Of a DNA stretch of 64,000 bases, positions 1 to 22,396 are shown in pieces. A program made the translations under genes and the position numbers. The DNA is from Escherichia phage ECOP18, in sequence record NC_105825.1. The stretch is one strand, 5' to 3'. Numbering within the stretch: the stretch's first letter is position 1; each line of letters begins with the position of its first letter. The notes below the pieces were generated by a model. It did no database searches and was not told where the DNA came from. It saw nothing but the letters and a program-made list of their open reading frames with translations.

Positions 1-57
1 GAAATGGTGAAAGGTATTGATATTTCTACTTTTACCACTAGCACCGAAATCGAGTAA
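1..57 (+). CDS. 3' end of an upstream ORF (partial)
   Basis: Open frame from the window edge to TAA at 55-57, followed by a GC hairpin gtgggga/tccccac at 66-88. Confidence 0.3.
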   Translation, partial: EMVKGIDISTFTTSTEIE

Positions 58-122
58 TAATATTTAGTGGGGATTATTTCCCCACTTTACTATTCCCTTG
101 TTAATTAATAGGAGGCTAACTA

Positions 123-617
123 ATGGCTGAGGAAAAATACGGCTTCTCGCTAGGAGAAGTGAGCACGGCTAAACATGATATGATCATTTTAGTCGATTGT
201 CATACTGGCTATTGCGGAGAAGGGAACACCGAAGAATACTTTGTTCCTGCTGGTACGGATCTGGACGCTTTCGCTCATGAAATGGCTATTGATAATGCTT
301 CTCGTTTTGGTAGCGATGGCTATGAAGACGAAGAAACTGGCGAATGGTATGAAAATGAAAACGTATATGCAAGCCTTTATCATTATCAGCTAAGTAAATC
401 CGGCACATATGTAAACGGCGGCGATCCTATTAATTCCGTCATGAAATTAATTATTAAATATGGTGGCGTCGAGATAATTGATAACAAAGCGGTAATATAC
501 GCAAACCGATTAAAACAGCTTGTTTATATTCCTGATAGTACCCGATGGGATGAATACGCTGTTTTGCATGACGAATTGAAACGATGTTTCAATATTGAAT
601 CCCTGCAAGTAGTCTAA
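123..617 (+). CDS. hypothetical protein (pre-early-like)
   Basis: ORF track 164 aa; RBS aggagg 8 nt upstream of ATG. Confidence 0.6.
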   Translation: MAEEKYGFSLGEVSTAKHDMIILVDCHTGYCGEGNTEEYFVPAGTDLDAFAHEMAIDNASRFGSDGYEDEETGEWYENENVYASLYHYQLSKSGTYVNGGDPINSVMKLIIKYGGVEIIDNKAVIYANRLKQLVYIPDSTRWDEYAVLHDELKRCFNIESLQVV

Positions 618-631
618 TGTAAAGTTTTGTA

Positions 632-660
632 AAGGTCGCCTTTTATGGTGGCCTTTTTTG
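632..660 (+). terminator. putative rho-independent terminator
   Basis: Hairpin aggtcgcc/ggtggcct with G-U pairs followed by tttttt. Confidence 0.4.
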
Positions 661-722
661 TTATAATGCTTTTACACCAAAACGGTGGATTGAAAATTTT
701 CCCAAAAATTTGGAGGCTTAAA

Positions 723-953
723 ATGGTTGCTTATTCTTCTGCTAGTCATCTGTTTACCGCGCAAGGCTGGGTATCTAATCGTGCTGTCATCTATGAAATG
801 GTGCAGGAGTTCGGCATTGCTAAAACTTATAATACCATTCAGGAACTATATAACGCCGATAAAATCGATCAGCAAACGGCTGGCTTTTTACTGGATACCC
901 TGAAAGCTGAACATTGCACTAAAAAACAAGCCGCTAAAATTGTTTTAATGTAA
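723..953 (+). CDS. hypothetical protein
   Basis: ORF track frame; start moved to the ATG preceded by RBS ggagg (MVAYSS...). Confidence 0.5.
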   Translation: MVAYSSASHLFTAQGWVSNRAVIYEMVQEFGIAKTYNTIQELYNADKIDQQTAGFLLDTLKAEHCTKKQAAKIVLM

Positions 954-1002
954 TTAATAACGGGGCGTTACTTTCGCCCCGATAACTAGGAGGCTATCAC
1001 AA

Positions 1003-1152
1003 ATGGTTATTTTTCGATCTATTTTAGCGGGTATCTTGGGCGCTATTTTATCGTTATTTGCGATAGCTTTCGGCGTTCACGCTGTTATTATTGGCGCTGG
1101 CATTGCTGCGTTTTCTTATCTGCTGGGCTGCATGACTAGTAAAGGAGAATAA
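1003..1152 (+). CDS. small hydrophobic membrane peptide (49 aa)
   Basis: Hand-translated; RBS aggagg upstream; one hydrophobic Gly/Ala/Ile-rich segment; below the ORF-track size cutoff. Confidence 0.35.
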   Translation: MVIFRSILAGILGAILSLFAIAFGVHAVIIGAGIAAFSYLLGCMTSKGE

Positions 1153-1154
1153 AA

Positions 1155-1367
1155 ATGATCCGCAACGTTTCCCTTGCACGTTCGAAAGGCTTTAAGCTGG
1201 TGGATGTTAACACGTTCGAGCGGGAAGATTGTAAAATCGAATATGTAGCACGTAACAAAAATGCCTTTCGTGTTACCGAGAAAAAATTTGATAAGCGCGG
1301 CAACGTGATAGCTGAAACAGTTAAACATTTTGCCACCTTTTACGCTGCTTTTCGTGGGGTATTATGA
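1155..1367 (+). CDS. hypothetical protein
   Basis: ORF track 70 aa; RBS aaggag upstream. Confidence 0.5.
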   Translation: MIRNVSLARSKGFKLVDVNTFEREDCKIEYVARNKNAFRVTEKKFDKRGNVIAETVKHFATFYAAFRGVL

Positions 1368-1467
1368 TTCAGCAAATTAAAACGGCTTTTCGTTTTTGGG
1401 GCGTCCTGCCTTCAATTGGTTTTATTCTGATAATTATTAGTCAGCTAATGATCATCGGCGGAACTAT

Positions 1468-1827
1468 TTGGGAGCTATGCAAATGATAATTTATGAAGGC
1501 AATCGCTTTGTTGCTAATTACCGTCCGGCATTATTAGCAAACTATTTAAACCAGCTTTCCCCAGCTTATAAGGGCGTTATTAATATTTATGAGGGAAAGG
1601 CGCATTATAAAATTAATGCGGTCGTTGCCCGTGAACTAGCATTTCAATTTTTGACCTTTGCATCTTGTGACGTTCAGGTTATGGGTGAGGCATTAATCGC
1701 GGAAAATGAAGAGGATTTTATTAATATTTTCCGTAAGGTATGCACTGAGCGCTTGATAATGAAAGGCGCGTATATTCAATCAACTGCGGAAAGTATTGAA
1801 ACAGCATTTCGAAAGGTGGCGCAATGA
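1468..1827 (+). CDS. hypothetical protein
   Basis: ORF track 119 aa; true start may be ATG at 1483. Confidence 0.5.
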   Translation: MGAMQMIIYEGNRFVANYRPALLANYLNQLSPAYKGVINIYEGKAHYKINAVVARELAFQFLTFASCDVQVMGEALIAENEEDFINIFRKVCTERLIMKGAYIQSTAESIETAFRKVAQ

Positions 1828-2050
1828 GATTATATATTTTCGTTGGTAATGTTAAGGCAGCTAATGATTCCGCTGGTGGCGACAACGTTCGCCACCATTG
1901 GCAAAAATATATTTACTAGGAGTTATTATGTCTGGTTTAATGTTTACCTTATTAGTAGTTTATAGCATAATTACGGCAGGAATAGTAACTTATGTTACTA
2001 GTAAAATTTGGCCGGGAATATATGGTAATTTTTAATAACGGAGCGTTATT

Positions 2051-2254
2051 ATGAGCAATAAAATTATTGTAACCAAAATCAGTACAATGGTTGATGTTTT
2101 TTACGTGCCAGATACGCCGGAGAATCGGCAAGCGGTCGAGCGGGGCGAATATGATAAAGTGATTTATGATCACGATGGTTATTATCAGTATTTGGTGGAT
2201 TCCTACGGGGAGGAGGAGAAGATCACGCATCGACTACCGGAGGAGGGTTTATGA
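2051..2254 (+). CDS. hypothetical protein
   Basis: ORF track 67 aa; RBS ggagcg upstream. Confidence 0.45.
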   Translation: MSNKIIVTKISTMVDVFYVPDTPENRQAVERGEYDKVIYDHDGYYQYLVDSYGEEEKITHRLPEEGL

Positions 2255-2404
2255 AACGATGGTTTAATCACTGGTACAAGCGGTTTTTAGTACGCCGTCG
2301 CAAGTCTAGGCATCAAGATGAGTGGCGGGAGTGGGCAAAGCGTAACGGTTGCCCGCTACTATAATAATCACGGGGCGCAACTATCGGGAAGTGCCCCCAA
2401 TTCT

Positions 2405-2427
2405 CAAATGAGAATGATTCTCATTTG
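2405..2427. repeat. perfect 23-bp palindrome caaatgagaatgattctcatttg
   Basis: Read directly; related aaatgagaatcattctcatt palindromes recur at 2790-2920. Confidence 0.7.
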
Positions 2428-2648
2428 ACCGCGCCCGCGATGGTTAGCCTGCTAATGATTAGGGTGTTACGTGTCGCCTTGTGTGATCGTTAGCGAGCTA
2501 ACTAATTTTCAAGCCTCCTCCAATTTTGCCCTTGTTTTAGTATCTCCACCAAAATTAAACGCGTTAGAATGCGATCTAGGACGTTTTAACGCTATATTAG
2601 AATTATTCACTGCGTAGGAATACTGTATATTTATACAGTAGGATAAGC

Positions 2649-2657
2649 TGTGGATAA
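2649..2657 (+). promoter_or_regulatory. DnaA-box-like 9-mer TGTGGATAA
   Basis: Reverse complement of the TTATCCACA consensus; lies next to a ctgttaataa motif. Confidence 0.45.
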
Positions 2658-2721
2658 GTCTGTTAATAACACCCCAAAATGGCTAGGATTCTGTCAAGTC
2701 AAATCGTGCTGTTAATAAGTC

Positions 2722-2730
2722 TGTGGATAA
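2722..2730 (+). promoter_or_regulatory. DnaA-box-like 9-mer TGTGGATAA (second copy)
   Basis: Same 9-mer, again next to ctgttaataa. Confidence 0.45.
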
Positions 2731-2789
2731 CTTAAATAATAGTGTTTCTCACTTCCGTTCTTAAATACGAATCACTATCATTTGCGTTC

Positions 2790-2958
2790 CACTTTCTAAA
2801 TGAGAATCATTCTGCTTTTTAAAGGAGAATCGTTTCACTTCCTGAATAATTCTCACTTCCATTCTTAAATGCGAATTATTATCATTCTCATTCCGCTTTT
2901 TAAATGAGAATCATTCTCATTATCATTCGCATTCAGGCGAGCAGGGCAATTGCCCTGC
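2790..2958. repeat. cluster of inverted repeats (aaatgagaatcattctcatt and gcagggcaattgccctgc)
   Basis: Read directly; non-coding. Confidence 0.6.
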
Positions 2959-2963
2959 GCTTT

Positions 2964-3633
2964 TGTGCAAATCCGACATTGCTCCACGGGTGTTACGTGC
3001 GGGCGTGTATGTGCGAATCCGACAATTTTTGGTAGTGTGCAAATCCGACCCGAAAAATTTTTATAGTGTGCAAATCCGACAATGAATTTTCCTAAAAACT
3101 CCAGCAATCACGAACTGCGTTCGAATCCTGTGGGGTATGTGCAAATCCGACACGGTTTTTCTAGGATTAAGATGTGCGAATCCGACAAGATTTTTGTGAC
3201 TTCGATTGGAGGGTGTGTGATTGTGTGAGTTTGGGGAGAAGTTGAGAGAGCGAGAAAAATTTGAGGGAACTGCGGGAGGGGCGCATGTTTGGTGCGGAGC
3301 ACCTGATTTGCGGGGATTTTGGGGAAGAGTTGAGAAGATTTGGGTTAATTTGAGATTAGTGCAGAAAAAGTAAAATTTTATTAGCTAAATGGAGCAAAAT
3401 AGCTTGACAAGTGAAAATTCTTGTGGCTCTAAAAACTCAGGCAATCATGGGCCTTCGGCCCGAAATAATGCTGCCATTTTCAGGAGATTATGTGTCCATG
3501 AAAACTCAGGCAATCATGGGCCTTCGGCCCGAAATAATGCTGCCATTTTCAGGAGATTATGTGTCCATGAAAACTTAGGCAATTGTGCAAATCCGACCAG
3601 TTTTTAAACTTATGTCAGTGTGCAAATCCGACA
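2964..3633 (+). repeat. iteron-like array, 8 direct copies of TGTGC(A/G)AATCCGAC(A/C)
   Basis: Copies start near 2964, 3010, 3036, 3067, 3138, 3173, 3584 and 3619, each followed by a T-rich spacer; no coding frame. Confidence 0.7.
3432..3587 (+). repeat. 69-bp tandem direct repeat, 2 full copies plus a degenerate third
   Basis: aaaactcaggcaatcatgggccttcggcccgaaataatgctgccattttcaggagattatgtgtccatg repeated exactly at 3432-3500 and 3501-3569; contains hairpin gggcc-ttcg-ggccc. Confidence 0.8.
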
Positions 3634-4077
3634 GTAATTTCTGGAAATGTGTTTTGGAAAAATGCCCTCTAGAAATAACCGCCCTCCCAATAACCGCCCT
3701 GTATTAAACCGCCTAGTATATGTTCCTAGAAACTTAGGAGAACCGCCCTAGAAAGAGGGAGTATTTCGTGAGAACTCTGGAGTTTCTAGGAAAGTGTTGT
3801 GCCATCCTAGCAGAAGAGCGGCAACCGGTGTATCATCTTGAACACAAATATTGCCTTTAAATATTTTTAGTTATTTAAAAGTAAATATACCCCCATTTCA
3901 TGTGAGATTCCTCGTGGGGCGCGTGAGTATTACGGAAGAACTCTAATATTGGCCCGCGCTAAGACTAGCCGCTATAGCACAGACGCAAATAGAGTTGTAA
4001 TAATCATCGCCCCTAGAGTTCACAATAAGAGTTATTGTTAATCTATGAGATTATTATAACATACATTTTTAATAACG

Positions 4078-4833
4078 TCAAGAAGATTTTACTAATGTTT
4101 TTGGATTCTTCTTGGCTTTGAGATATATCCCTTTAGATGCTAGATAGATATATGTTGCTAGAAATGAAGATTCTGATCCCGATTCCTCATAGGTTAACGT
4201 ACCTCTAGGGTATTTATTTGTTTTAGGAGCATAGTTAAGCACAGCCGCAGTTAATGACCCTAATCCTAGAACATCTGCAAGACGTCTAAAGGTATTCTCT
4301 TCATCATGGATAGCATAAAGAATGTTATCTTCAATATCCGTTAATGGAATTTTACGGGTATGAGATACTGCAATCCGTGCTATCATAGCTCCAATTGTTT
4401 TATTAATATCCTCGAAAGAAACACTCTCCATATATTTTAGAGGGGGAAGATGGTCATATTTACATTTCTTAGGTGGAATAAGAAGTTGTTCAGGATAAGC
4501 CTCTAGTGCCTGACGAACGTTTGCTTCTGGATATGTTGGTAAAGGTTCATCTATAATAACATGTAAGAAATTAGCTCTGTGCCCCTTAGCAGTTGGATCT
4601 AAAGACTTCAATATTTTGTTCATATCCACGTATGAATACGCTAGATCTGCTTGAGGAGCATTAATATCAAACTTAATCTTCTTACCTTCCCATTTAGCAG
4701 GGAACATCTCACAAACAAACATTACTGCATGTTTAACATCTGGCTCTAGCTCTGATAGACATTTGTGATCTGCTGTTACTGCTAAAGCGAGTATATTCTT
4801 AAATTTATTAGCTTCTTCAATCATATATCCCAT
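4078..4833 (-). CDS. hypothetical protein
   Basis: ORF track 251 aa; first gene of the minus-strand block. Confidence 0.55.
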   Translation of the reverse strand: MGYMIEEANKFKNILALAVTADHKCLSELEPDVKHAVMFVCEMFPAKWEGKKIKFDINAPQADLAYSYVDMNKILKSLDPTAKGHRANFLHVIIDEPLPTYPEANVRQALEAYPEQLLIPPKKCKYDHLPPLKYMESVSFEDINKTIGAMIARIAVSHTRKIPLTDIEDNILYAIHDEENTFRRLADVLGLGSLTAAVLNYAPKTNKYPRGTLTYEESGSESSFLATYIYLASKGIYLKAKKNPKTLVKSS

Positions 4834-5162
4834 GCCTGCTGACTATTATCACTAACTTGTGTCTTTTTCTTTCTTTGTGGTTTAAAAGCTCCTTTAGTAT
4901 TGCTTCTATTAGGCTCTAATTTATACCACAGCATTCCTAGCTGGTTAACCATATGAGCAACATTTCTAGGAGTCAATGGTGGTAGAAATTCGCAGTTTGA
5001 TATTTCCACTAATATATTAAGTAACTCTGTCTCTTTAGCTTTACTGTTTACTACCACCACGTATTCTAATGTTTCTACCTCGGAATCCTCGTCTTTATAG
5101 TAGAGGCTAAGAGTAATTAAATTGTCACCAGCAGGAGTTATTTTTGTTTTACCAAATATCAT
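4821..5162 (-). CDS. hypothetical protein
   Basis: ORF track 113 aa; tightly packed with neighbours. Confidence 0.5.
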   Translation of the reverse strand: MIFGKTKITPAGDNLITLSLYYKDEDSEVETLEYVVVVNSKAKETELLNILVEISNCEFLPPLTPRNVAHMVNQLGMLWYKLEPNRSNTKGAFKPQRKKKTQVSDNSQQAWDI

Positions 5163-5755
5163 TAATTACCTCTCTTATCTTCATTAATAGCAGCTCCCAA
5201 CGCCTCCATAATAGCATCCTCTAAACTTCCATGTTTACCAGGATTATTAAAATGAATAGTACAAACAGAACTCCTAGAAACTCCAGCATCCACAGGTGCT
5301 ACGCTTCGCATATCAGATTCAAAAGCTTCTTGAGTATGTTTCAACTGCACAGAAGGGCCGTAATCTTCACCAACTCGATAAGATTGATTAGACGACAGCG
5401 TACCACCGCATGGAACATTGTGTAAATCCGATGATTTATTTAACAGTGCAATACCGCCTTTTGACCACGGGTCACTAACAGTGGTACTGGGACGATTTAC
5501 CTCAGTCTTCACGAGTTTATAACCAGCGTCTATTAGTGCATTAATCAGGTTATCAGCTGGGATGCGAGCCGTGCCAAAAATCTTACGAGCATCTTCAAGC
5601 TTACCTTCAAAATCTTTACACGCTCTAAGGTCGGTGTGTGCAAATGTTAGCTTCATAGATTTGAATTGTACAGTAGCAGTTAAATCTTTAAAGCTATAAT
5701 CCCATGTGTTCAGTTCATGGTCTAGTACTAATTGAATAGGTTGTTGTGTAAACAT
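5162..5755 (-). CDS. hypothetical protein
   Basis: ORF track 197 aa. Confidence 0.55.
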   Translation of the reverse strand: MFTQQPIQLVLDHELNTWDYSFKDLTATVQFKSMKLTFAHTDLRACKDFEGKLEDARKIFGTARIPADNLINALIDAGYKLVKTEVNRPSTTVSDPWSKGGIALLNKSSDLHNVPCGGTLSSNQSYRVGEDYGPSVQLKHTQEAFESDMRSVAPVDAGVSRSSVCTIHFNNPGKHGSLEDAIMEALGAAINEDKRGN

Positions 5756-5940
5756 TATTTATTCTCCAGTTTGTCTAACAGTTTATGGGCTGCTAGATTA
5801 TATTGTTTGAGTTCACGATTAAGGATTTGGTTCTCACACTTTAGCTCTAGATTCTTGTTGTTAAGAATGTTGCAGATTAGTAGAAGTGCTAGTATTAGTA
5901 ACAGAGAACCTACGAGCATTAAAAGAAAAAGAGTTTCCAT
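5755..5940 (-). CDS. small membrane protein
   Basis: 61 aa, one hydrophobic helix followed by a coiled-coil-like tail. Confidence 0.45.
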   Translation of the reverse strand: METLFLLMLVGSLLLILALLLICNILNNKNLELKCENQILNRELKQYNLAAHKLLDKLENK

Positions 5941-6173
5941 TATTTAATTCCCATGTAACGTTTGAGATATATGATGAAGTCTTCTGCTGTATGCTCTACG
6001 CTACCTTGAGCTACGAATAGCTTGAGAGCTTCACGTTGTAACTTAAGAGCAGCCAACTCACCCCGTAATTTTACCAGATCTTCTGCTAGTTCTCTAGCTC
6101 TACGCATAATAGCAAAAGATACAAGTACTACGATGAATAACATAACTACTAAAATAATTGCTATGATTTCCAT
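5940..6173 (-). CDS. small membrane protein
   Basis: 77 aa, N-terminal hydrophobic helix. Confidence 0.45.
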   Translation of the reverse strand: MEIIAIILVVMLFIVVLVSFAIMRRARELAEDLVKLRGELAALKLQREALKLFVAQGSVEHTAEDFIIYLKRYMGIK

Positions 6174-6451
6174 ATTAACATCCAGCTTTTATCACACATT
6201 TGGGCATGATCTATCAGTTCATTCATTGATGTGTTGTTATCATAAATGCACTCTAGTATATACTTTCTGTCAAATTCGTCAACCAAATATTCTACATTAT
6301 TTATTACTACTTTATACAGATCTGGGACTAGAGAGCATGTATTTGGTACGGGGCGACTGCTTAAGTCTATTTCATTATAGCCCCATGTTGTTTTAAATAG
6401 TTTGTTACTAAGTGCTGCTAATGGATTTGACCATATAATATAGCTACTCAC
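6161..6451 (-). CDS. hypothetical protein
   Basis: ORF track 96 aa. Confidence 0.45.
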   Translation of the reverse strand: MSSYIIWSNPLAALSNKLFKTTWGYNEIDLSSRPVPNTCSLVPDLYKVVINNVEYLVDEFDRKYILECIYDNNTSMNELIDHAQMCDKSWMLIWKS

Positions 6452-6890
6452 TATTTATCTCCATTCTTAACTTTGAAAACTTATTATACCAAACTATATG
6501 ATTATCGTCAATTACAAATTTATGATAACATGCTGGTACGGTATAAGTTCCATAATCCGTGACACGCTGCACAACCTTGTGTGCACACAGTCGACAACCG
6601 TGCCCTTCTAAATGAGATCTAGCCGTTTGCCAGTAATAACCATCATGATCCGGACAATAGATCTCGACTTGCTGTTGCATTGTTTTATAATTTACACGCT
6701 CATACCCAAAGAAAGCTCCATGAGCTGCAACAGCTTTCTTGATAAATATAAGGTTTAGTGCTTCTTGCTGAAAGTCGGGATGTAGCTGCTTAATCTTATT
6801 TCTATTAATAGATCCATCAGATTTGATAAACCTATTTATTGGGAAGTTGTTAGCTTCCTCGATTAATAATTCATTTACTTTTTCTCTCAT
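6444..6890 (-). CDS. hypothetical Cys/His-rich protein
   Basis: ORF track frame; start moved to internal Met (MREKV) to avoid overlap with the upstream gene; CPDHDGYYW...HGCRLCAH segment. Confidence 0.4.
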   Translation of the reverse strand: MREKVNELLIEEANNFPINRFIKSDGSINRNKIKQLHPDFQQEALNLIFIKKAVAAHGAFFGYERVNYKTMQQQVEIYCPDHDGYYWQTARSHLEGHGCRLCAHKVVQRVTDYGTYTVPACYHKFVIDDNHIVWYNKFSKLRMEINSE

Positions 6891-6891
6891 A

Positions 6892-7116
6892 TTAGATATT
6901 CTCACAGCTAAGGTAGAAGCATTCGTAAGCATCACCAGTAAACTCTTTATCTTGTAGTATACACTTAGCCTGGTCTTGTGGTACTCCGGCATCTAATAAT
7001 TGTTGTTTACTTGGCTTTTCAGCGAATACTTTTACAAAATATTCGCCATCCTGATTATACTCATTTATATCTCTAGTAAGGACATATACTTGCATTTGAA
7101 GTTCCTTGAAACACAA
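6892..7116 (-). CDS. hypothetical protein
   Basis: ORF track 74 aa. Confidence 0.45.
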   Translation of the reverse strand: MCFKELQMQVYVLTRDINEYNQDGEYFVKVFAEKPSKQQLLDAGVPQDQAKCILQDKEFTGDAYECFYLSCENI

Positions 7117-7120
7117 AAGG

Positions 7121-7150
7121 CCAGAACAATTAAGTCCTGGCCTCTAGAAT
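7121..7150 (-). terminator. putative rho-independent terminator
   Basis: Hairpin ggccag/ctggcc followed by a U-rich run on the minus-strand transcript. Confidence 0.45.
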
Positions 7151-7521
7151 TAATGAAGTTGTTTACCACTTCTTAAAATAGTGGCCGTTTCCATAAGATT
7201 TAACGTTGTATCACGCTTTTTGATTTGTTTGTCCAGTTCATCGGTACGTTTGCCAATGTAAGCGTTAATAGCCATATTCATAGCTGAGGCAAGATCTTCT
7301 TTGGTTATCTCTTCATTATCTAAAGCTAATTTAGCTAAAGAATCGAAAGTACTAGAAAGGCCTATAAGATCTGAGGTTTCACTGGCCAAAATAGGGTTAA
7401 TATTATCTATTGTTACTTCTAACATAGAGTTAACAATATCTTCTCCGTCTACTAGACCAGATTCAATATTACTCTCCCATTCCTTCATCTGCTCCAGCAA
7501 GGGATTTTTCTTTTCTGTCAT
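7150..7521 (-). CDS. hypothetical protein
   Basis: ORF track frame; start uncertain (internal Met chosen). Confidence 0.4.
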   Translation of the reverse strand: MTEKKNPLLEQMKEWESNIESGLVDGEDIVNSMLEVTIDNINPILASETSDLIGLSSTFDSLAKLALDNEEITKEDLASAMNMAINAYIGKRTDELDKQIKKRDTTLNLMETATILRSGKQLH

Positions 7522-7930
7522 GGTAGAGATTTCCTGTGTCAGTTGGTAAGAAGGATGATTGCGTTTTAGGTGGATGTTGTTTAGCAATCCAGTTAAGAAT
7601 CAGCACACGACTAGGAACAATATCAGTGTTGTACCAGAAATCGTGAACCCATTGACGAGCATCCTCAAACTTACCAAATTTATACGCTTTCTTAAACAAT
7701 TCAAACCCAAAACAATCTGGTGTAAAGTCTACTTCACGATACTGAATTACTTTAGAACCAGTTAGGTCTTGGATCGCTGCATTAATTTCTGTATGCGAGA
7801 ATTTTGTTTCGTGAAACTTGTTAAAGAATCGGTAGTTGAAGCGTCCGTTCGTTTCGACAAACAACTGGATGAAGAGATCGTTAAATTGGTTATCAAACCA
7901 GTAATTCTGTAGTTGTTGTAGTGCTGTCAT
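7469..7930 (-). CDS. hypothetical protein
   Basis: ORF track 153 aa. Confidence 0.5.
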   Translation of the reverse strand: MTALQQLQNYWFDNQFNDLFIQLFVETNGRFNYRFFNKFHETKFSHTEINAAIQDLTGSKVIQYREVDFTPDCFGFELFKKAYKFGKFEDARQWVHDFWYNTDIVPSRVLILNWIAKQHPPKTQSSFLPTDTGNLYHDRKEKSLAGADEGMGE

Positions 7931-8127
7931 TTACGAACTCCGTTAATCGCCATAATGATGCCTTCGTACATAAAAGGAAGTAACCCAGAAGTATAGAATA
8001 TATTTTCCGTTATTCCTAAATGTCTAAAAAGTATATTAAATAATGCTGTTAGAAACACAACCTGAGGCAGTAGTACAAAATACTCAGTTACGATCTTTGG
8101 TGCCTGATAAACAAGACGTTTTATCAT
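7927..8127 (-). CDS. small membrane protein
   Basis: 66 aa, hydrophobic. Confidence 0.4.
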   Translation of the reverse strand: MIKRLVYQAPKIVTEYFVLLPQVVFLTALFNILFRHLGITENIFYTSGLLPFMYEGIIMAINGVRK

Positions 8128-8226
8128 TGTTTTTAAGTCTCCTTATTACTTTGGCCTGCTCCACAATAATGAAAACTGCGAGCACTAATAGTGCTATTAG
8201 CCCCGCAGTAACTGGTACTAAATCAA

Positions 8227-8553
8227 TCATGGGAGACGCCATACGTAATTAGCTGTCTGTAGGATCTTAGGTGTGTCATTATGATACATTACTACAGACT
8301 TTGGTGAGTAGCTATCAGCTAGTTCTTTACGAATCATTTCACACTCTTCACCAGTATCAATATTTTTAACTATCACTTTCATATTAAGTGGTGTTAATAC
8401 AGAAAGTGGTTTCCAAGAGTCCTCAATTTCAATTCCTACCTTTTTCTCAATTATCCTGATAACTTCTAATGTATCATCCGGAATACTTATATTATTATTC
8501 ACAAACTGTAATATCTCATGTAAGGTATTTAATTCATTAAAATTAAGCTTCAT
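8227..8553 (-). CDS. hypothetical protein
   Basis: ORF track 108 aa. Confidence 0.5.
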   Translation of the reverse strand: MKLNFNELNTLHEILQFVNNNISIPDDTLEVIRIIEKKVGIEIEDSWKPLSVLTPLNMKVIVKNIDTGEECEMIRKELADSYSPKSVVMYHNDTPKILQTANYVWRLP

Positions 8554-8788
8554 CTTTAAGAATGTCCTCTACCATATCACAAGACTGTTGCAATTCATCA
8601 GCAATACGTTTAATATCGGTTTTTGTTACTTTACCAACTAACATCACCAGTAGCATAGAAAAGATAATAAGTGGAACTGGAATAACAAATAAAGCTACCT
8701 TAACAACATTCTTTGGTGCCCATGTGTGGTACTTGGTAACCAGTACACCAACCACAATCAAATAAAACGCTAGAATAAACATTATCAT
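8543..8788 (-). CDS. membrane protein
   Basis: 81 aa, two hydrophobic helices. Confidence 0.45.
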   Translation of the reverse strand: MIMFILAFYLIVVGVLVTKYHTWAPKNVVKVALFVIPVPLIIFSMLLVMLVGKVTKTDIKRIADELQQSCDMVEDILKDEA

Positions 8789-9066
8789 TTTTTAATCTCC
8801 GTAATTATCTGAGCACGCATCACTTTATTAGGTAATTTTGTATTCCCAGCTATTGCTTCAATATTGTTTAGTTTTTCTTTTAGAATATCTGAGCGTCTCT
8901 GTGCTAGTTCAATATCTTGTTCTTGCTCTAGCAAACGGTGGTGTAGTCCATCATTAGTAATAAGCATACTTTCCATGTTTTTTCGTGCGTTTACAACGCC
9001 AATAATTCCACCAATCGCTACTAGCGTAGTAAGAACCAGTAACCCAATAAGAATTTCTGTAATCAT
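8785..9066 (-). CDS. membrane protein with coiled-coil tail
   Basis: 93 aa, N-terminal TM helix. Confidence 0.45.
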   Translation of the reverse strand: MITEILIGLLVLTTLVAIGGIIGVVNARKNMESMLITNDGLHHRLLEQEQDIELAQRRSDILKEKLNNIEAIAGNTKLPNKVMRAQIITEIKK

Positions 9067-9184
9067 TTATTTAATTCCTCTAAAGTAGGTAAGGGTTTTG
9101 TATGATCAAAAGTTTCTATAACAGCGTTAGACCCATGTAGTTCTAAACGTAGTTCATTAGCTCTTTGAACTGCCAACTCTAAAT

Positions 9185-9598
9185 CTAAATACCTAAAGTA
9201 GCCTCCGTGTATTGTAATACTTTCGGCGCTTCTGACCTGGACTCTCCATTGTTGTCGATCTTTTTCCAGGTAACTCCTAAGTACCCCGAATTAGATTGAG
9301 CGATTTTGCTGCGATTATTTTCTTGGGACGTACAATCTTTTAAATTACACCATCTATTATCGTTTCTTATATTATTTAAGTGGTGTACTAGATTTGGAAT
9401 ATATCCCTCCATGTACAAAAAGGCTAATCTATGGGCTGCATATCTTTTTCTACTTATCCCAATAAATATATAGCCATCCTTATCAGGACTACCGGCAATA
9501 CTACCTGCTTTACCCCGCCCTCTACTGACTTTCCTTATAAACACGCCCGTTTCCGGGTGGTATTCAAATAGCTCTTTTAATTTTTCTTGTGTTAGCAT
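9185..9598 (-). mobile_element. HNH homing endonuclease (free-standing)
   Basis: 137 aa; AHRLAF...HHLNNIRNDNRWCNL resembles the HNH His-Asn-His signature. Confidence 0.6.
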
Positions 9599-9870
9599 TT
9601 TTTCTTTAATTGCTTGACTTCACGCTCAAAGCTAGCTGCTCGGCGTTCTGCCACTGCTTGATGCTCCTTAGCAAAGCGTGCCTCTTGTTTTGCTAAGTTA
9701 AAGGCCATAGCGTTCTTGTTAAGAGAATCGTACATCTTCTTCATCGCCGGAATAGACATTTTCATCAGTTGCCCCTCAAATCCTTGCATGTCGAGAAGAA
9801 TTGCTAATACATTGGCCATTTCAGTCTTGGTAAGGTTAGAGGCGTCGAAGTCTTTAGTCATGTTTTCCAT
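9592..9870 (-). CDS. hypothetical protein
   Basis: ORF track frame; start moved to MENMTK downstream of the conserved promoter leader. Confidence 0.5.
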   Translation of the reverse strand: MENMTKDFDASNLTKTEMANVLAILLDMQGFEGQLMKMSIPAMKKMYDSLNKNAMAFNLAKQEARFAKEHQAVAERRAASFEREVKQLKKKC

Positions 9871-9902
9871 TAGAATTTCCTCTCTCATTAATTTATGAAC
9901 TT

Positions 9903-9931
9903 ATTATACAGAATTTTAAGGCTTAAAGCAA
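9903..9931 (-). promoter_or_regulatory. early sigma70-type promoter (TTGCTT-17-TATAAT)
   Basis: Minus-strand -35 TTGCTT and -10 TATAAT, 17-bp spacer, AT-rich upstream, conserved leader. Confidence 0.6.
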
Positions 9932-9948
9932 CTGAATTTTTTAATTAC

Positions 9949-10380
9949 TTACCAATCGTTAACAACGCCGGAGAACTCAGAAGCAAAAACTTTTTCAAAT
10001 TTCTCTGCAATTTCAGGATGATCTTTGCAGATCAGCTCAATACAGGCTTCTGGAGTCATTCCTTCATCTTCAGGATCACCGTAATACTTGTCCCAAAGAT
10101 CATCAGGGATGATGTGCTCTGCCAAATCTTGGAAAGAGATTAGCTGATAACGTTCTGCTTCCTCAGGGAGGAGGATTTCACAAAGATCTTTATCTATGTC
10201 ACTACGGTAATCAGCAATTAGCAGGGCATTGCAAGCATGACACTCCCAAACCATCAAGCGCTCAGAAATAGGATTAGACTTATCCTGAACGTAGGACTGA
10301 AACAGGGTTCGGAAAGTAGCTTTAACTTGTTCAAACTTATCTGCTGCTGCAAAAACTAGAGCTTTATCAACTTTGTTCAT
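9949..10380 (-). CDS. hypothetical protein
   Basis: ORF track 143 aa; RBS in the conserved leader. Confidence 0.55.
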   Translation of the reverse strand: MNKVDKALVFAAADKFEQVKATFRTLFQSYVQDKSNPISERLMVWECHACNALLIADYRSDIDKDLCEILLPEEAERYQLISFQDLAEHIIPDDLWDKYYGDPEDEGMTPEACIELICKDHPEIAEKFEKVFASEFSGVVNDW

Positions 10381-10410
10381 TTTTATTCCTTCTCATCAAT
10401 TTATAAAGTA

Positions 10411-10439
10411 ATTATACAGAAACTTAGGCATTTTAGCAA
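10411..10439 (-). promoter_or_regulatory. early sigma70-type promoter (TTGCTA-17-TATAAT)
   Basis: Same architecture as 9903-9931. Confidence 0.6.
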
Positions 10440-10539
10440 ATAAAACTTTTAATTAAAATGCCTAGTCCTGTGCCAATAGCAATACAAATGATTATAAGTA
10501 TTGCTACTGTTTGTATTACTCGTTTAATAATACCCATGA

Positions 10540-11061
10540 TTAGACATTTAACATCCAACTAGTTTTATCATGAGAAGTATATGTACCACTCATTATGTCT
10601 TCCAGCCGTACTGGTGATTTTGCATACTCAACGCAAACGTTAATATAACGAGGGTCTCCCATTAACTCAAAGTGAGTATGCCCGTGTAAGTTCTTCTTGC
10701 CCCTTAACTCTTCTGGATGTACTGGAGCATGGGAAAGCCAAAAGTTTTTATACTTAACTAGGGATTGTACATTATCTACTACTCCTACTAAGTCTTTGAA
10801 AGATAATCCTTCTCGCTCTAAGTCGTGGTTCCCCAAAACTAATGTAGTTCTAACATTGCTAAAGAGTTTTTCGAACTTCTCCAAACCATTTCTAGATACA
10901 AATGCATCTCCTAAAATATAAAATACTGTACGCTTATCTTTCATGGATGTAATAGTATCCATAATAAATTCATCATGCTCTTCCATAGTAGAGAAGATTG
11001 GTCTGAATTTAGTAATATTTGCATGTCCTAAGTGGAGATCACTCCAAAAGCAAACTTTCAT
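10540..11061 (-). CDS. calcineurin-like metallophosphoesterase
   Basis: 173 aa; motifs SDLHLGH, GD, GNHD, GHTH. Confidence 0.6.
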   Translation of the reverse strand: MKVCFWSDLHLGHANITKFRPIFSTMEEHDEFIMDTITSMKDKRTVFYILGDAFVSRNGLEKFEKLFSNVRTTLVLGNHDLEREGLSFKDLVGVVDNVQSLVKYKNFWLSHAPVHPEELRGKKNLHGHTHFELMGDPRYINVCVEYAKSPVRLEDIMSGTYTSHDKTSWMLNV

Positions 11062-15388: not shown

Positions 15389-16141
15389 TTATCCAACTAG
15401 TGGTTCTAGCTCTAAGTCACAGAAGTTATAAACTTCTAGTTTAAGGTTATTGATACCATCGAATTTATTAACTAATTCGTGAGTAATATATTTTGCAGGA
15501 ATACCACTTTCAGATGGATGATCTGATTTAATAGTGAACTTCTGCTCAGCGGGTACTACATTTACTATCAAAGAATCCATATCTAAATGGTTTGTTTCTC
15601 TGAGTAACTCTCCTTCATTGGGGAATCTAACATCTGTTATTACGGCGACATCTGGGTCGTCTTTAAAGATGGATTGCTCCAGAATTATGAGCCAAATGCG
15701 TTCATGCACCAGCTGCCTTCCTAGCTCTGTCCCTACGAGCTGTAACATTTTTCTCGGAGAAATAAATAAACTATAAAGTCCGTCTTCTTTATTCTCTGAG
15801 ATAAGTTGTTGAGGATTAAGATATTTTTCCTCAAAAATAGGCCAAACGTACGAGAAGTCTTCAAACTTATCGATACCGTACTTAAACCACACATCTCTGG
15901 CTCGCTCCAATTGAGATTGTGTGACCGTAAACCATTGGTCAATCTCTTTTCCTCTGCGCTCTCCTAGAAACTCTGGAGTTACACCGAGGATTACGGATGC
16001 AAGTTCATAAACAGGCTTAGCAAAACTATAACGACGGGATAAACACGTTGGATACGTGTCATTACACCAATCGATAATTAATTTTGCAACGGTATCTTTT
16101 CCCGAACCAGCTTCACCATGTAAACCAACTAATACTGACAT
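15389..16141 (-). CDS. P-loop kinase (dNMP-kinase-like)
   Basis: 250 aa; Walker A GEAGSGKDT at the N-terminus. Confidence 0.55.
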   Translation of the reverse strand: MSVLVGLHGEAGSGKDTVAKLIIDWCNDTYPTCLSRRYSFAKPVYELASVILGVTPEFLGERRGKEIDQWFTVTQSQLERARDVWFKYGIDKFEDFSYVWPIFEEKYLNPQQLISENKEDGLYSLFISPRKMLQLVGTELGRQLVHERIWLIILEQSIFKDDPDVAVITDVRFPNEGELLRETNHLDMDSLIVNVVPAEQKFTIKSDHPSESGIPAKYITHELVNKFDGINNLKLEVYNFCDLELEPLVG

Positions 16142-22309: not shown

Positions 22310-22396
22310 TGGTGCTGGGCACAGGATTCGAACCTGTAACGGGATTACTCCTCCTGATTACAAATCAGGTGCATTCAACCATTCTGCCGACCCAGC
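22310..22396 (-). tRNA. tRNA, 87 nt with long variable arm, isotype unresolved
   Basis: Acceptor GCTGGGT/GCCCAGC, T-arm ACAGG-TTCGAAT-CCTGT, CCA encoded; anticodon loop reads TTTGTAA (UGU), which does not fit a type II scaffold. Confidence 0.45.

What the first reader, a model, noticed from the sequence alone, without database searches (positions are those of the whole stretch)
2365..3700. Non-coding control region with DnaA-box-like sites and nested palindromes
A 1.3-kb stretch with no credible ORF separates the plus-strand small genes from the minus-strand early block. It holds two TGTGGATAA sites (DnaA-box reverse complements) each next to ctgttaataa, a perfect 23-bp palindrome, and several aaatgagaatcattctcatt inverted repeats. 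This matches what I recall of the T5 first-step-transfer injection-stop region at the end of the left terminal repeat.
Basis: partly seen in the sequence, partly recalled or inferred. Interest (0 to 1): 0.55.

Follow-up and report, generated by a model that had tools for sequence, protein, structure and literature searches.

The report
T5-like phage injection-stop region
This is the well-known non-coding "injection stop signal" and terminal-repeat end of a T5-like phage, the stretch where the phage pauses while delivering its DNA; it is nearly identical to a phage already in the databases, so it is ordinary.

Summary
Window 2365-3700 lies in a 1.7-kb non-coding stretch (2365-4077). It is collinear with, and about 88% identical to, the region GenBank annotates in phage T5 as "injection stop signal". 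It is 99.9% identical to Escherichia phage vB_EcoS_MM-1.

By homology the region holds:
- a conserved 20-bp palindrome
- two pairs of DnaA-type 9-mers
- AT-rich palindrome repeats
- an 18-bp palindrome with the T5 7.9% nick consensus (2960/2961)
- eight GTGCRAATCCGAC repeats
- a G-rich tract
- the left-terminal-repeat end at 3429|3430

The same element order holds in Tequintavirus, Epseptimavirus, Sugarlandvirus, Erwinia phage KEY and, less completely, Serratia phage Kamaji. All of this, DnaA boxes included, is published (Heusterspreute 1987, cited and not read here; T5 GenBank annotation; Davison 2020). Why DNA transfer stops there is still unknown.

Additions from this work:
- The most conserved element is a 19/20 match to the LexA SOS-box consensus. 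No held paper links LexA to T5.
- The AT-rich repeats resemble Fur boxes.
- The 13-mer repeats always flank the repeat end.
- A 69-bp tandem duplication was seen only in this phage.
- A conserved leftward promoter lies at 4081-4053.

Novelty: already known. Interest: low.

The parts
2365..4077 (.). Whole non-coding stretch between the last plus-strand pre-early ORF (2251-2364) and the first minus-strand early gene (4078-4833). It corresponds to the 1662-bp non-coding region of T5.
   Evidence: ORF list. Stops in relatives. Alignment to T5, MM-1 and SPC35. Davison describes the T5 region as 9194-10856 with 97 stop codons.
2376..2491 (.). 116-bp segment absent from T5 but present in MM-1 and SPC35. 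It holds the perfect 25-bp palindrome at 2404-2428, an extra copy of the AAATGAGAAT-N-ATTCTCATTT palindrome family.
   Evidence: Alignment gap in T5. Palindrome I9 and its 100% complementarity to 2902-2921. The RNA/DNA hairpin folds with z = -3.7.
2621..2640 (.). Palindrome TACTGTATATTTATACAGTA, at the left edge of Davison's IRD'. It matches the E. coli LexA SOS-box consensus at 19 of 20 positions.
   Evidence: One mismatch to TACTGTATATATATACAGTA, with 0 hits in shuffles. Identity of 0.92-0.95 in all lineages, against 0.39-0.63 in flanks for the distant genera.
2649..2669 (-). Left pair of DnaA-type 9-mers: TGTGGATAA (= TTATCCACA) at 2649-2657, then GTC, then TGTTAATAA (variant 'DnaA*') at 2661-2669.
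   Evidence: (D11). Davison 2020 describes the pairs as separated by 3 bp.
2710..2730 (-). Right pair: TGTTAATAA (variant) at 2710-2718, then GTC, then TGTGGATAA (consensus) at 2722-2730. The consensus box is nearly invariant in relatives.
   Evidence: Box 4 identity is 0.98 over all 22 relatives and 0.93 in the distant genera.
2746..2917 (.). Two 68-nt direct repeats (2746-2813 and 2850-2917, 87% identical; T5 'DRE1/DRE2'). They are AT-rich and contain the AAATGAGAAT-N-ATTCTCATT palindromes, which resemble Fur boxes. The T5 shear point of first-step-transfer DNA maps to about 2908.
   Evidence: (D5, D3, I1-I6), (best Fur-consensus match 16/19 at 2906-2924). The shear point lies 521 bp left of the LTR end in T5.
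2941..2964 (+). Perfect 18-bp palindrome GCAGGGCAATTGCCCTGC followed by GCTTTT. It is terminator-like for rightward pre-early transcripts.
   Evidence: The only terminator-like site in 2000-4300. The hairpin folds at -22.4 kcal/mol, z = -3.0. Conserved in relatives.
2953..2961 (-). Predicted site of the T5 '7.9%' single-strand nick, between 2961 and 2960 on the minus strand (5'-pGCGC). It lies 11 bp before the first 13-mer repeat.
   Evidence: The T5 feature at 9748/9749 maps here. Three T5 nick sites share CC(C)TGCGC|T. YTGCGC lies 9-11 bp before the first repeat in five lineages. Placement is by homology only.
2965..3186 (+). Six direct copies of GTGCRAATCCGAC (T5 'DRD'), each followed by a short T-run.
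   Evidence: 8 in the window against 0.05 expected, all on the + strand. (D1, D2).
3196..3374 (+). G-rich, C-poor tract (71 G and 13 C in 179 nt) with three GAGTTTGGGGAGAAGTTGAGA-type repeats.
   Evidence: GC skew of +0.58 to +0.69. Base counts. Repeat family D8.
3422..3431 (.). Left-terminal-repeat end, TGTGGCTC|TA, with the boundary between 3429 and 3430. It corresponds to the right physical end of the genome in the right-hand repeat copy.
   Evidence: The annotated LTR ends of T5 (10219), MM-1 (10407) and SPC35 (9573) all align to this base. The motif is also present between 13-mer groups in the Klebsiella and Erwinia relatives. Placement is by homology only.
3432..3583 (.). 69-bp tandem repeat, 2.2 copies, each with a GGGCCTTCGGCCC hairpin. 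It lies just outside the terminal repeat. Relatives have one hairpin copy.
   Evidence: TRF score 297, 98% matches. One copy at most in 36 other loci. The duplication junction is absent from IMG/VR.
3585..3632 (+). Two more GTGCAAATCCGAC copies, on the unique-sequence side of the repeat end.
3677..3750 (+). Four copies of AACCGCC(C)T, starting at 3677, 3692, 3707 and 3741.
   Evidence: 4 of only 7 occurrences in the 64 kb, counting both strands.
4053..4081 (-). Conserved leftward sigma-70 promoter, TTGACG-N17-TATAAT with an extended -10 (TGTTATAAT). It fires into the non-coding region, toward the repeat end.
   Evidence: 11/12 consensus match with TG. The hexamers are conserved while the spacer varies in 17 of 22 relatives, including T5, EPS7 and Klebsiella JIPh_Kp127.

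Best explanation
WHAT IT IS (shown). This is the right-hand, non-coding end of the left terminal repeat of a Tequintavirus (T5-like phage), plus the first few hundred bases of unique DNA. It is the homologue of T5 'Repeat Region 3', which holds the injection stop signal (iss). From left to right it contains:
- a deeply conserved 20-bp palindrome (2621-2640)
- two pairs of DnaA-type 9-mers (2649-2730)
- AT-rich palindromic repeats (2746-2934)
- an 18-bp palindrome that is terminator-like for pre-early transcripts and carries the 7.9% nick consensus (2941-2961)
- six 13-mer repeats, then a G-rich tract
- the terminal-repeat end (3429|3430)
- a 69-bp tandem repeat and two more 13-mers

HOW IT WORKS (inferred; the published T5 model plus my reading).
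- The phage injects its left end first. Transfer halts when about 8% of the genome is inside, with the halt point mapping to about window 2900. Pre-early genes to the left are then expressed, and the A1 and A2 proteins restart transfer.
- The halt most likely needs sequence-specific proteins that assemble on the conserved core at 2621-2730 and on the palindrome array just after it enters the cell. Host DnaA at the 9-mers is the published proposal. LexA at the SOS-like palindrome is my addition.
- I put about 0.35 on a host-protein roadblock or anchor of this kind.
- The right half (13-mer array and TGTGGCTC|TA) more likely serves formation of the genome end during packaging (about 0.4) than the stop itself.

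The confidence given below is for the identity claim only.
For: Identity:
- 99.9% identical to MM-1, inside its annotated LTR.
- 88% identical and collinear with the annotated T5 iss, nick and LTR end. T5 and S114 iss labels lie under the match.
- 545 phage records match. There is no match in 5,426 E. coli genomes or 72,556 plasmids.

Functional constraint:
- The element order is the same in T5, EPS7, Klebsiella JIPh_Kp127 and Erwinia KEY. Serratia Kamaji keeps the core but shows no TR-end motif or DRC palindrome.
- The palindrome and DnaA box 4 are conservation peaks, at 0.92-0.93 in the distant genera against 0.39-0.63 in flanks.
- In the left pair, the perfect TGTGGATAA sits in box 1 in some phages and box 2 in others. 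This points to selection for having a consensus site rather than for a fixed sequence.

Non-coding.

Literature:
- The iss is described as a cis-acting site in the non-coding LTR end, and DnaA boxes in pairs 3 bp apart are described in 25 phages.
- A1 and A2 are essential for second-step transfer.
Against: - No experiment has ever shown which sub-element stops transfer, or that DnaA, LexA or any protein binds here. As of 2026 the mechanism is called 'poorly understood'.
- The count of two consensus DnaA boxes is not significant by itself.
- Proteins binding DNA already inside the cell would be expected to favour entry rather than block it, unless they are anchored.
- In vitro, T5 ejects its whole genome with only the FhuA receptor, and the pauses seen there correlate with nick positions. 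That favours a DNA-structure explanation.
- The nick position and the repeat end in this window are placed by homology only.
Confidence: 0.9

Rival explanations
1. The stop is mechanical and intrinsic to the DNA. The nick at 2960/2961, next to the 18-bp palindrome and the dense palindromes (hairpins or cruciforms, locally flexible DNA), jams in the tail or portal channel. No host DNA-binding protein is needed.
For: - The nick consensus and palindrome are conserved, and YTGCGC sits 9-11 bp before the first 13-mer in five lineages.
- The halt point (about 2908) lies about 50 bp from the nick.
- In vitro ejection of T5 is stepwise, with pauses that correspond to nick positions (review PMC2771126).
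- The palindromes fold strongly.
Against: - In vitro pauses are transient, many particles eject without halting, and complete ejection occurs with FhuA alone. In vivo the halt lasts until A1 and A2 are made.
- Other nick sites (homologues at window ~15,960 and ~31,490) do not cause a stable stop.
- From my own knowledge, not checked here: nick-less T5 mutants are viable.
- This model does not explain the conservation peak at the 20-bp palindrome and the 9-mers.
Confidence: 0.25
2. The right half of the region (13-mer array 2965-3632, G-rich tract, TGTGGCTC|TA) is mainly a genome-end formation and packaging signal. It would be recognised by terminase or an accessory protein to cut the right end of the terminal repeat. 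Its function is separate from the stop signal. This does not exclude the main explanation.
For: - The annotated repeat ends of three phages fall at the same base.
- The TGTGGCTCTA motif is also present in the Klebsiella and Erwinia relatives, and it always lies between two groups of 13-mers.
- The 13-mers are absent from the genome's left end and from the DNA before the right repeat, so they mark only this end.
- From my own knowledge: arrays of short repeats flank the T7 terminal repeat.
Against: - No experimental link exists between these repeats and T5 terminase.
- The poul149 record annotates its repeat end about 200 bp upstream of the motif.
- Two relatives (EPS7 and Kamaji) lack an exact TGTGGCTCTA.
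Confidence: 0.4
3. It is a DnaA-dependent replication origin: a DnaA-box cluster next to an AT-rich repeat region, with a nick.
For: Four DnaA-type 9-mers lie next to a stretch of 31-34% GC with repeats.
Against: - T5 origins were mapped near the middle of the genome, and the replication genes are not present during first-step transfer (Davison 2020).
- No oriC-like 13-mer unwinding element was seen.
- T5 encodes its own replication machinery (PMC3632103 abstract).
Confidence: 0.03
4. The stretch encodes several very small proteins, as annotated in the MM-1 record (eight 'hypothetical proteins' under the match).
For: - MM-1 annotation.
- ORF 3221-3373 matches phrog_32079.
- ORF 2509-2610(-) has no stop in 10 relatives.
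Against: - Most ORFs acquire stops or drop to 35-60% protein identity where the DNA stays about 80% identical.
- Nine of ten have no PHROG family.
- The PHROG-matching ORF has stops in T5 and three others, and no match in the three sampled relatives confirmed as Epseptimavirus (L032-L034).
- The curated T5 and SPC35 records have no genes there.
- The ORFs are built out of the DNA repeats themselves.
Confidence: 0.03

Closest known systems
Bacteriophage T5 injection stop signal / 'Repeat Region 3' of the left terminal repeat (GenBank AY543070 features; Davison 2020, bioRxiv 10.1101/866236; Heusterspreute et al. 1987 as cited there, not read here)
   Same: - Same position: between the plus-strand pre-early genes and the minus-strand early genes.
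- 88% identity with no indels from 2538 to 3132.
- Same order of elements: palindrome, two DnaA-box pairs separated by GTC, DRE repeats, 18-bp palindrome with nick consensus, DRD 13-mers, G-rich repeats and LTR end.
   Different: - The window has a 116-bp extra segment (2376-2491) with a 25-bp palindrome where T5 has its annotated terminator.
- Both outer 9-mers are perfect consensus (T5 has TGGGGATAA at the first).
- There are 8 DRD copies rather than 9.
- The centre of the 20-bp palindrome is inverted (TTT against AAA).
- There is an extra 69-bp tandem copy just outside the repeat.
Escherichia phage vB_EcoS_MM-1 (PV577657), LTR 1..10407
   Same: 99.9% identical over 2365-3700. Window base 1 corresponds to about MM-1 base 6979. 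The LTR end falls at the homologous base.
   Different: MM-1 has one copy of the 69-bp unit, and the centre base of the 25-bp palindrome differs. MM-1 annotates eight small ORFs under the match, which I regard as spurious.
DnaA-box clusters of E. coli (oriC and similar sites), consensus TTATCCACA / TTWTNCACA
   Same: Two perfect TTATCCACA and two one-off variants, closely spaced in one orientation.
   Different: Not a replication origin. The spacing is 12 bp centre to centre. No DnaA binding has been shown. The cluster is a phage-only sequence with no E. coli homologue.
LexA operators (SOS boxes), consensus TACTGTATATATATACAGTA (my own knowledge of the consensus)
   Same: 19 of 20 positions match, and the CTGT-N8-ACAG core is intact. 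CTG is kept in all 22 relatives and CAG in 21 of 22. A second CTGT-N8-ACAG lies in the partner inverted repeat of MM-1 at 5741-5760.
   Different: The site overlaps no convincing promoter and no gene lies downstream. The phage is virulent. LexA binding is untested. No held paper links LexA to T5.
Short-repeat arrays flanking the terminal repeat of phage T7 (my own knowledge)
   Same: Arrays of a short direct repeat bracket the end of a direct terminal repeat.
   Different: The sequences are unrelated, the repeat is much longer (about 10 kb) and the packaging system is different. No function has been shown in T5.

Membership tests
T5-type injection-stop region (LTR 'Repeat Region 3') | Non-coding stretch at the right end of the left terminal repeat, between the plus-strand pre-early genes and the minus-strand early genes | tested here: met
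   ORF map. Relatives' annotation. ORF decay in relatives.
T5-type injection-stop region (LTR 'Repeat Region 3') | Sequence homology and collinearity with the annotated T5 iss (AY543070 9140..10149) | tested here: met
   88% identity over 995 bp. Alignment. Annotated iss under the match in AY692264 and S114.
T5-type injection-stop region (LTR 'Repeat Region 3') | IRD'-spacer-IRC' with two pairs of DnaA-type boxes, each pair 3 bp apart, at T5 spacing | tested here: met
   Boxes at 2649, 2661, 2710 and 2722 with GTC spacers. No indels relative to T5 across this part. Definition.
T5-type injection-stop region (LTR 'Repeat Region 3') | Partner inverted repeat IRC-spacer-IRD further left in the LTR | not testable with these tools
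   The partner would lie upstream of window base 1. In the 99.9% relative MM-1 it is present at 5651-5760, with DnaA boxes on the opposite strand and a CTGT-N8-ACAG.
T5-type injection-stop region (LTR 'Repeat Region 3') | Two DRE repeats (about 66 bp) and a series of DRD repeats | tested here: met
   DRE at 2746-2813 and 2850-2917, 87% identical (D5). Eight DRD copies.
T5-type injection-stop region (LTR 'Repeat Region 3') | Major single-strand nick with consensus Pu|pGCGC on the minus strand | tested here: inconclusive
   The sequence consensus CCCTGCGC|T is present at the homologous base. The nick itself cannot be seen in sequence.
T5-type injection-stop region (LTR 'Repeat Region 3') | Lies in a direct terminal repeat (a second copy at the right genome end; coverage doubling) | not testable with these tools
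   The window holds one copy and there are no reads. The boundary is placed at 3429|3430 by homology to three annotated records.
T5-type injection-stop region (LTR 'Repeat Region 3') | DNA transfer halts here until A1 and A2 are made | not testable with these tools
   This is an experimental property. A1 and A2 homologues ('DNA transfer protein' and 'DNA binding protein') are annotated in the MM-1 LTR.
DnaA box | 9-mer matching TTATCCACA / TTWTNCACA | tested here: met
   Two perfect matches. The two TGTTAATAA sites miss the relaxed consensus by one base.
DnaA box | Bound by DnaA | not testable with these tools
   No binding data exist for T5.
LexA operator (SOS box) | CTGT-N8-ACAG palindrome close to TACTGTATATATATACAGTA | tested here: met
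   19/20 match, with 0 expected by chance. Conserved across lineages.
LexA operator (SOS box) | Overlaps a promoter that it represses | tested here: not met
   Only a 9/12 promoter-like match (2629->2602, minus strand) overlaps it. No gene lies downstream on either strand.
LexA operator (SOS box) | Bound by LexA | not testable with these tools
   Needs EMSA or ChIP.
Chromosomal-type replication origin | DnaA boxes plus an AT-rich unwinding element that supports initiation | tested here: inconclusive
   Boxes and an AT-rich neighbour are present, but no oriC-type 13-mers were seen. T5 origins map elsewhere.

The most novel reading that the evidence does not exclude
The most conserved element of the stop region is a working LexA operator, and the neighbouring AT-rich hexamer arrays are Fur-type sites. 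The DNA-transfer halt, or the pre-early programme, would then depend on abundant host global repressors docking on the first-entered DNA, alongside or instead of DnaA. No paper in the held library links LexA to T5. The 1987 and 2005 primary papers could not be read.
Probability: 0.12. Interest if true: 0.55.

Novelty: already known. Interest (0 to 1): 0.17.

Why it matters
Two-step DNA delivery by T5 has been known since the 1960s, but why the DNA stops at 8% is still unexplained. This window adds no new kind of element. It is one more copy of a region compared across 25 phages in 2020.

Its value is as a map. It shows which sub-elements are held constant across five lineages: the SOS-like palindrome, one consensus DnaA box, the nick consensus followed by the first 13-mer, and the repeat-end motif bracketed by 13-mers (absent as an exact match in EPS7 and Kamaji). 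Those are the sites to mutate or footprint first.

Practically, correct placement of the repeat end and removal of the spurious small ORFs would improve annotation of T5-like therapeutic phages.

Tried and rejected
- Rfam scan of 1500-5000 at E<=1: no RNA family.
- PHROG scan of ten small ORFs: nine with nothing, one family of unknown function that is itself interrupted in relatives.
- Similarity to E. coli genomes and to plasmids: none, so the region was not borrowed from a host locus.
- IHF consensus WATCAANNNNTTR: no site in 2365-3700.
- 13-mer repeats or a LexA-like box at the genome's left end or before the right repeat of MM-1: none. The 13-mers are therefore not a general 'both ends' signal.
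- A promoter that the LexA-like box could control: none convincing.
- An intrinsic terminator right after the last ORF: the hairpins at 2371-2437 and 2490-2503 lack a good T-run or fold weakly. Only 2941-2964 looks terminator-like.
- The 69-bp duplication elsewhere: not in 36 loci or IMG/VR.
- A 'LexA cleavage releases the stop' idea: rejected on my own knowledge that T5 grows on recA cloning strains, and because A2 mutants degrade host DNA yet do not resume transfer.
- The Davison 2015 review (PMC4743489) is not held.
Full report
**1. The observation**

The stretch was read directly.
- TGTGGATAA, the reverse complement of the DnaA box TTATCCACA, occurs only twice in the 64-kb window, at 2649-2657 and 2722-2730.
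- Two hits are not significant by count alone: 17 of 100 shuffles reach two.
- The arrangement is clearly non-random, however. Each site is separated by GTC from TGTTAATAA (2661-2669; 2710-2718). The two pairs form a 24-nt direct repeat in which the two 9-mers are swapped (D11).
- The aaatgagaatcattctcatt motif occurs exactly once (2902-2921), with close and degenerate variants. The family gives 5 hits against 0.07 expected.
- Only 30-80-aa ORFs are present. Most pick up stop codons or lose protein identity faster than DNA identity in relatives. Nine of ten have no PHROG family.
- The non-coding stretch runs to 4077, so it is 1.7 kb long, not 1.3 kb.

**2. What it is**

- Megablast finds 455 phage records, and the more sensitive blastn finds 545. 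Most are named for Salmonella, Escherichia or Klebsiella hosts, and every record whose taxonomy I opened is in Demerecviridae.
- The best match is Escherichia phage vB_EcoS_MM-1, at 99.9% over 100% of the query, inside its annotated left terminal repeat (LTR). Window base 1 corresponds to about MM-1 base 6979.
- GenBank AY543070 (T5) annotates four relevant features: 'injection stop signal (iss)' at 9140..10149, a terminator at 9275..9296, a 'major DNA single-chain interruption' at 9748/9749 on the minus strand, and the LTR as 1..10219.
- Window 2529-3511 aligns to T5 9317-10301 at 88% identity. A four-way alignment maps the T5 iss to window 2237-3359 and the nick to 2960/2961.
- The LTR ends of T5 (10219), MM-1 (10407) and SPC35 (9573) all map to the same base, window 3429|3430 (…TGTGGCTC|TAAAAACT…).
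- Other records carry the labels 'injection stop signal' (AY692264) or 'similar to DNA injection stop signal' (S114) under the match.
- There is no similarity to E. coli genomes or to plasmids and no Rfam family.

**3. Anatomy in window coordinates**

- 2376-2491: a 116-bp segment absent from T5, holding the 25-bp palindrome.
- 2621-2640: the palindrome TACTGTATATTTATACAGTA.
- 2649-2730: the two 9-mer pairs.
- 2746-2813 and 2850-2917: two 68-nt direct repeats, 87% identical, full of AAATGAGAAT-N-ATTCTCATT palindromes.
- 2941-2958: the perfect palindrome GCAGGGCAATTGCCCTGC followed by GCTTTT. This is the only terminator-like site in the region (-22.4 kcal/mol).
- 2953-2960: CCCTGCGC. This is the extended consensus shared by the three T5 nick sites I compared and it is unique in the window.
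- 2965-3186: six copies of GTGCRAATCCGAC. Two more lie at 3585-3632. That is 8 copies against 0.05 expected, all on the plus strand.
- 3196-3374: a G-rich, C-poor tract with GC skew up to +0.69.
- 3429|3430: the repeat end.
- 3432-3583: a 69-bp tandem repeat, 2.2 copies.
- 3677-3750: four copies of AACCGCC.

Anchoring Davison's T5 coordinates on the LTR end gives two further placements. His IRD'-spacer-IRC' falls at about 2622-2752, so the 20-bp palindrome is the left edge of IRD'. The calculated shear point of first-step-transfer DNA falls at about 2908.

**4. Conservation**

I aligned the core from 22 relatives: 19 Tequintavirus/Epseptimavirus-type sequences, plus Klebsiella phage JIPh_Kp127 (Sugarlandvirus), Erwinia phage KEY and Serratia phage Kamaji.
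- The 20-bp palindrome and the right-most DnaA box are the conservation peaks. In the three distant genera their identity to the window is 0.92 and 0.93, against 0.39-0.63 in the flanks.
- In the left pair, the perfect TGTGGATAA sits in box 1 in some phages and box 2 in others. That is what selection for the presence of a consensus site would produce.
- The element order is the same in T5, EPS7, JIPh_Kp127 and KEY: palindrome, 9-mers, palindromic repeats, YTGCGC 9-11 bp before the first 13-mer, 13-mer array, TGTGGCTCTA between two groups of 13-mers. Kamaji keeps the core of it. EPS7 and Kamaji show no exact TGTGGCTCTA, and neither gave a hit to the DRC palindrome pattern.
- The 13-mers do not occur at the genome's left end or before the right repeat of MM-1.
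- The partner inverted repeat (IRC-spacer-IRD) lies outside the window. In MM-1 it is at 5651-5760, with DnaA boxes on the other strand and a second CTGT-N8-ACAG.

**5. How it works**

*What is established (literature).*
- T5 injects its left end first and stops after about 8%.
- It expresses the pre-early genes and needs A1 and A2 to resume.
- The iss is described as a cis-acting site in this non-coding region.
- Complete ejection occurs in vitro with FhuA alone.
- In vitro ejection is stepwise, with pauses that correlate with nick positions.
- The stop mechanism is still described as poorly understood in 2026.

*What is proposed.* Davison suggests that membrane-associated DnaA binds the boxes and holds the DNA, and that A1/A2 cut the DNA to release it.

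*My reading.*
- The conservation pattern favours sequence-specific protein binding to the core at 2621-2730. I give this about 0.35 as the cause of the halt.
- A purely mechanical jam at the nick and palindromes is the main rival, at about 0.25.
- The 13-mer array and TGTGGCTC|TA more probably serve genome-end formation, at about 0.4. This is compatible with either stop model.
- A replication-origin reading is disfavoured because T5 origins map mid-genome.

None of these steps can be shown by sequence analysis.

**6. Small additions beyond the literature I could read**

- The 20-bp palindrome matches the LexA SOS-box consensus at 19 of 20 positions, with 0 hits in shuffles. It keeps CTG in all 22 relatives and CAG in 21 of 22.
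- LexA and SOS are not mentioned in Davison 2020. No held paper links LexA to T5.
- The palindrome overlaps no convincing promoter, so the operator feature of the SOS-box definition is not met.
- The AT-rich repeats resemble Fur boxes. The best Fur-consensus match in the whole window (16/19) is at 2906-2924, and 12 of the window's 63 hits at 13/19 or better fall in 2365-3700.
- Both points are leads, not findings.

**7. Verdict**

This is a known element in a phage nearly identical to a deposited one. Novelty is 'already known' and interest is low (0.17). The most novel reading not excluded is that host LexA (and Fur) dock here functionally, with probability about 0.12.

Noticed in passing
window 2621-2640: The palindrome TACTGTATATTTATACAGTA matches the LexA SOS-box consensus at 19 of 20 positions. 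It is the best-conserved element of the region across five Demerecviridae lineages. I found no paper in the held library linking LexA to T5. Relatives carry either TTT or AAA at the centre, which makes the two forms exact reverse complements of each other.
   Followed up: partly
window 2796-2934 and 2404-2428: The AAATGAGAAT-N-ATTCTCATT palindromes and the TCATTC hexamer run resemble Fur boxes (GATAATGATAATCATTATC). The best match in the whole 64 kb (16/19) is at 2906-2924 on the minus strand. Nine hits at 13/19 or better lie in 2740-2940, against 0.14 in shuffles.
   Followed up: partly
window 2965-3186 and 3585-3632: Eight same-strand copies of GTGCRAATCCGAC bracket the terminal-repeat end. 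The same bracketing is seen in T5 and in the Klebsiella and Erwinia relatives. The motif is absent from the genome's left end. A role in genome-end formation is possible.
   Followed up: partly
window 3432-3583: A 69-bp tandem duplication, each unit with a GGGCCTTCGGCCC hairpin, starts 2 bp after the terminal-repeat end. All 36 related loci examined have at most one copy, and the duplication junction is absent from IMG/VR.
   Followed up: yes
window 4053-4081, minus strand: A strong leftward sigma-70 promoter (TTGACG-N17-TGTTATAAT) lies just past the stop codon of the last early gene. Its hexamers are conserved in 17 of 22 relatives while the spacer varies. It is not annotated in T5. It fires into the non-coding DNA toward the repeat end, where there is no minus-strand ORF of 30 aa or more. 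The downstream RNA (4080->3935) folds with z = -3.3. It may produce a small or antisense RNA.
   Followed up: partly
window 3196-3374: This tract is strongly G-rich and C-poor (71 G against 13 C; GC skew up to +0.69) with GGGG runs, including GCGGGGATTTTGGGG, just inside the terminal-repeat end.
   Followed up: no
window 3677-3750: Four copies of AACCGCC(C)T lie within 75 bp. Only three other occurrences exist in the 64 kb on either strand.
   Followed up: no
window ~15954-15962 and ~31490: These are homologues of the two other T5 nick sites annotated at 22336/7 and 39746/7. They keep …GCGC|TCTC… but not the full CCCTGCGC seen at the iss nick.
   Followed up: partly
L001 (MM-1, PV577657) 9449-10660: The MM-1 record annotates a string of 31-50-aa 'hypothetical proteins' across the non-coding repeat region. 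These are probably gene-caller artefacts.
   Followed up: yes
L033 (poul149, MF431738) 2195 vs 2397: The annotated left-terminal-repeat end of poul149 lies about 200 bp upstream of the conserved TGTGGCTCTA motif that marks the repeat end in T5, MM-1 and SPC35. Either the annotation is imprecise or the end truly differs.
   Followed up: no
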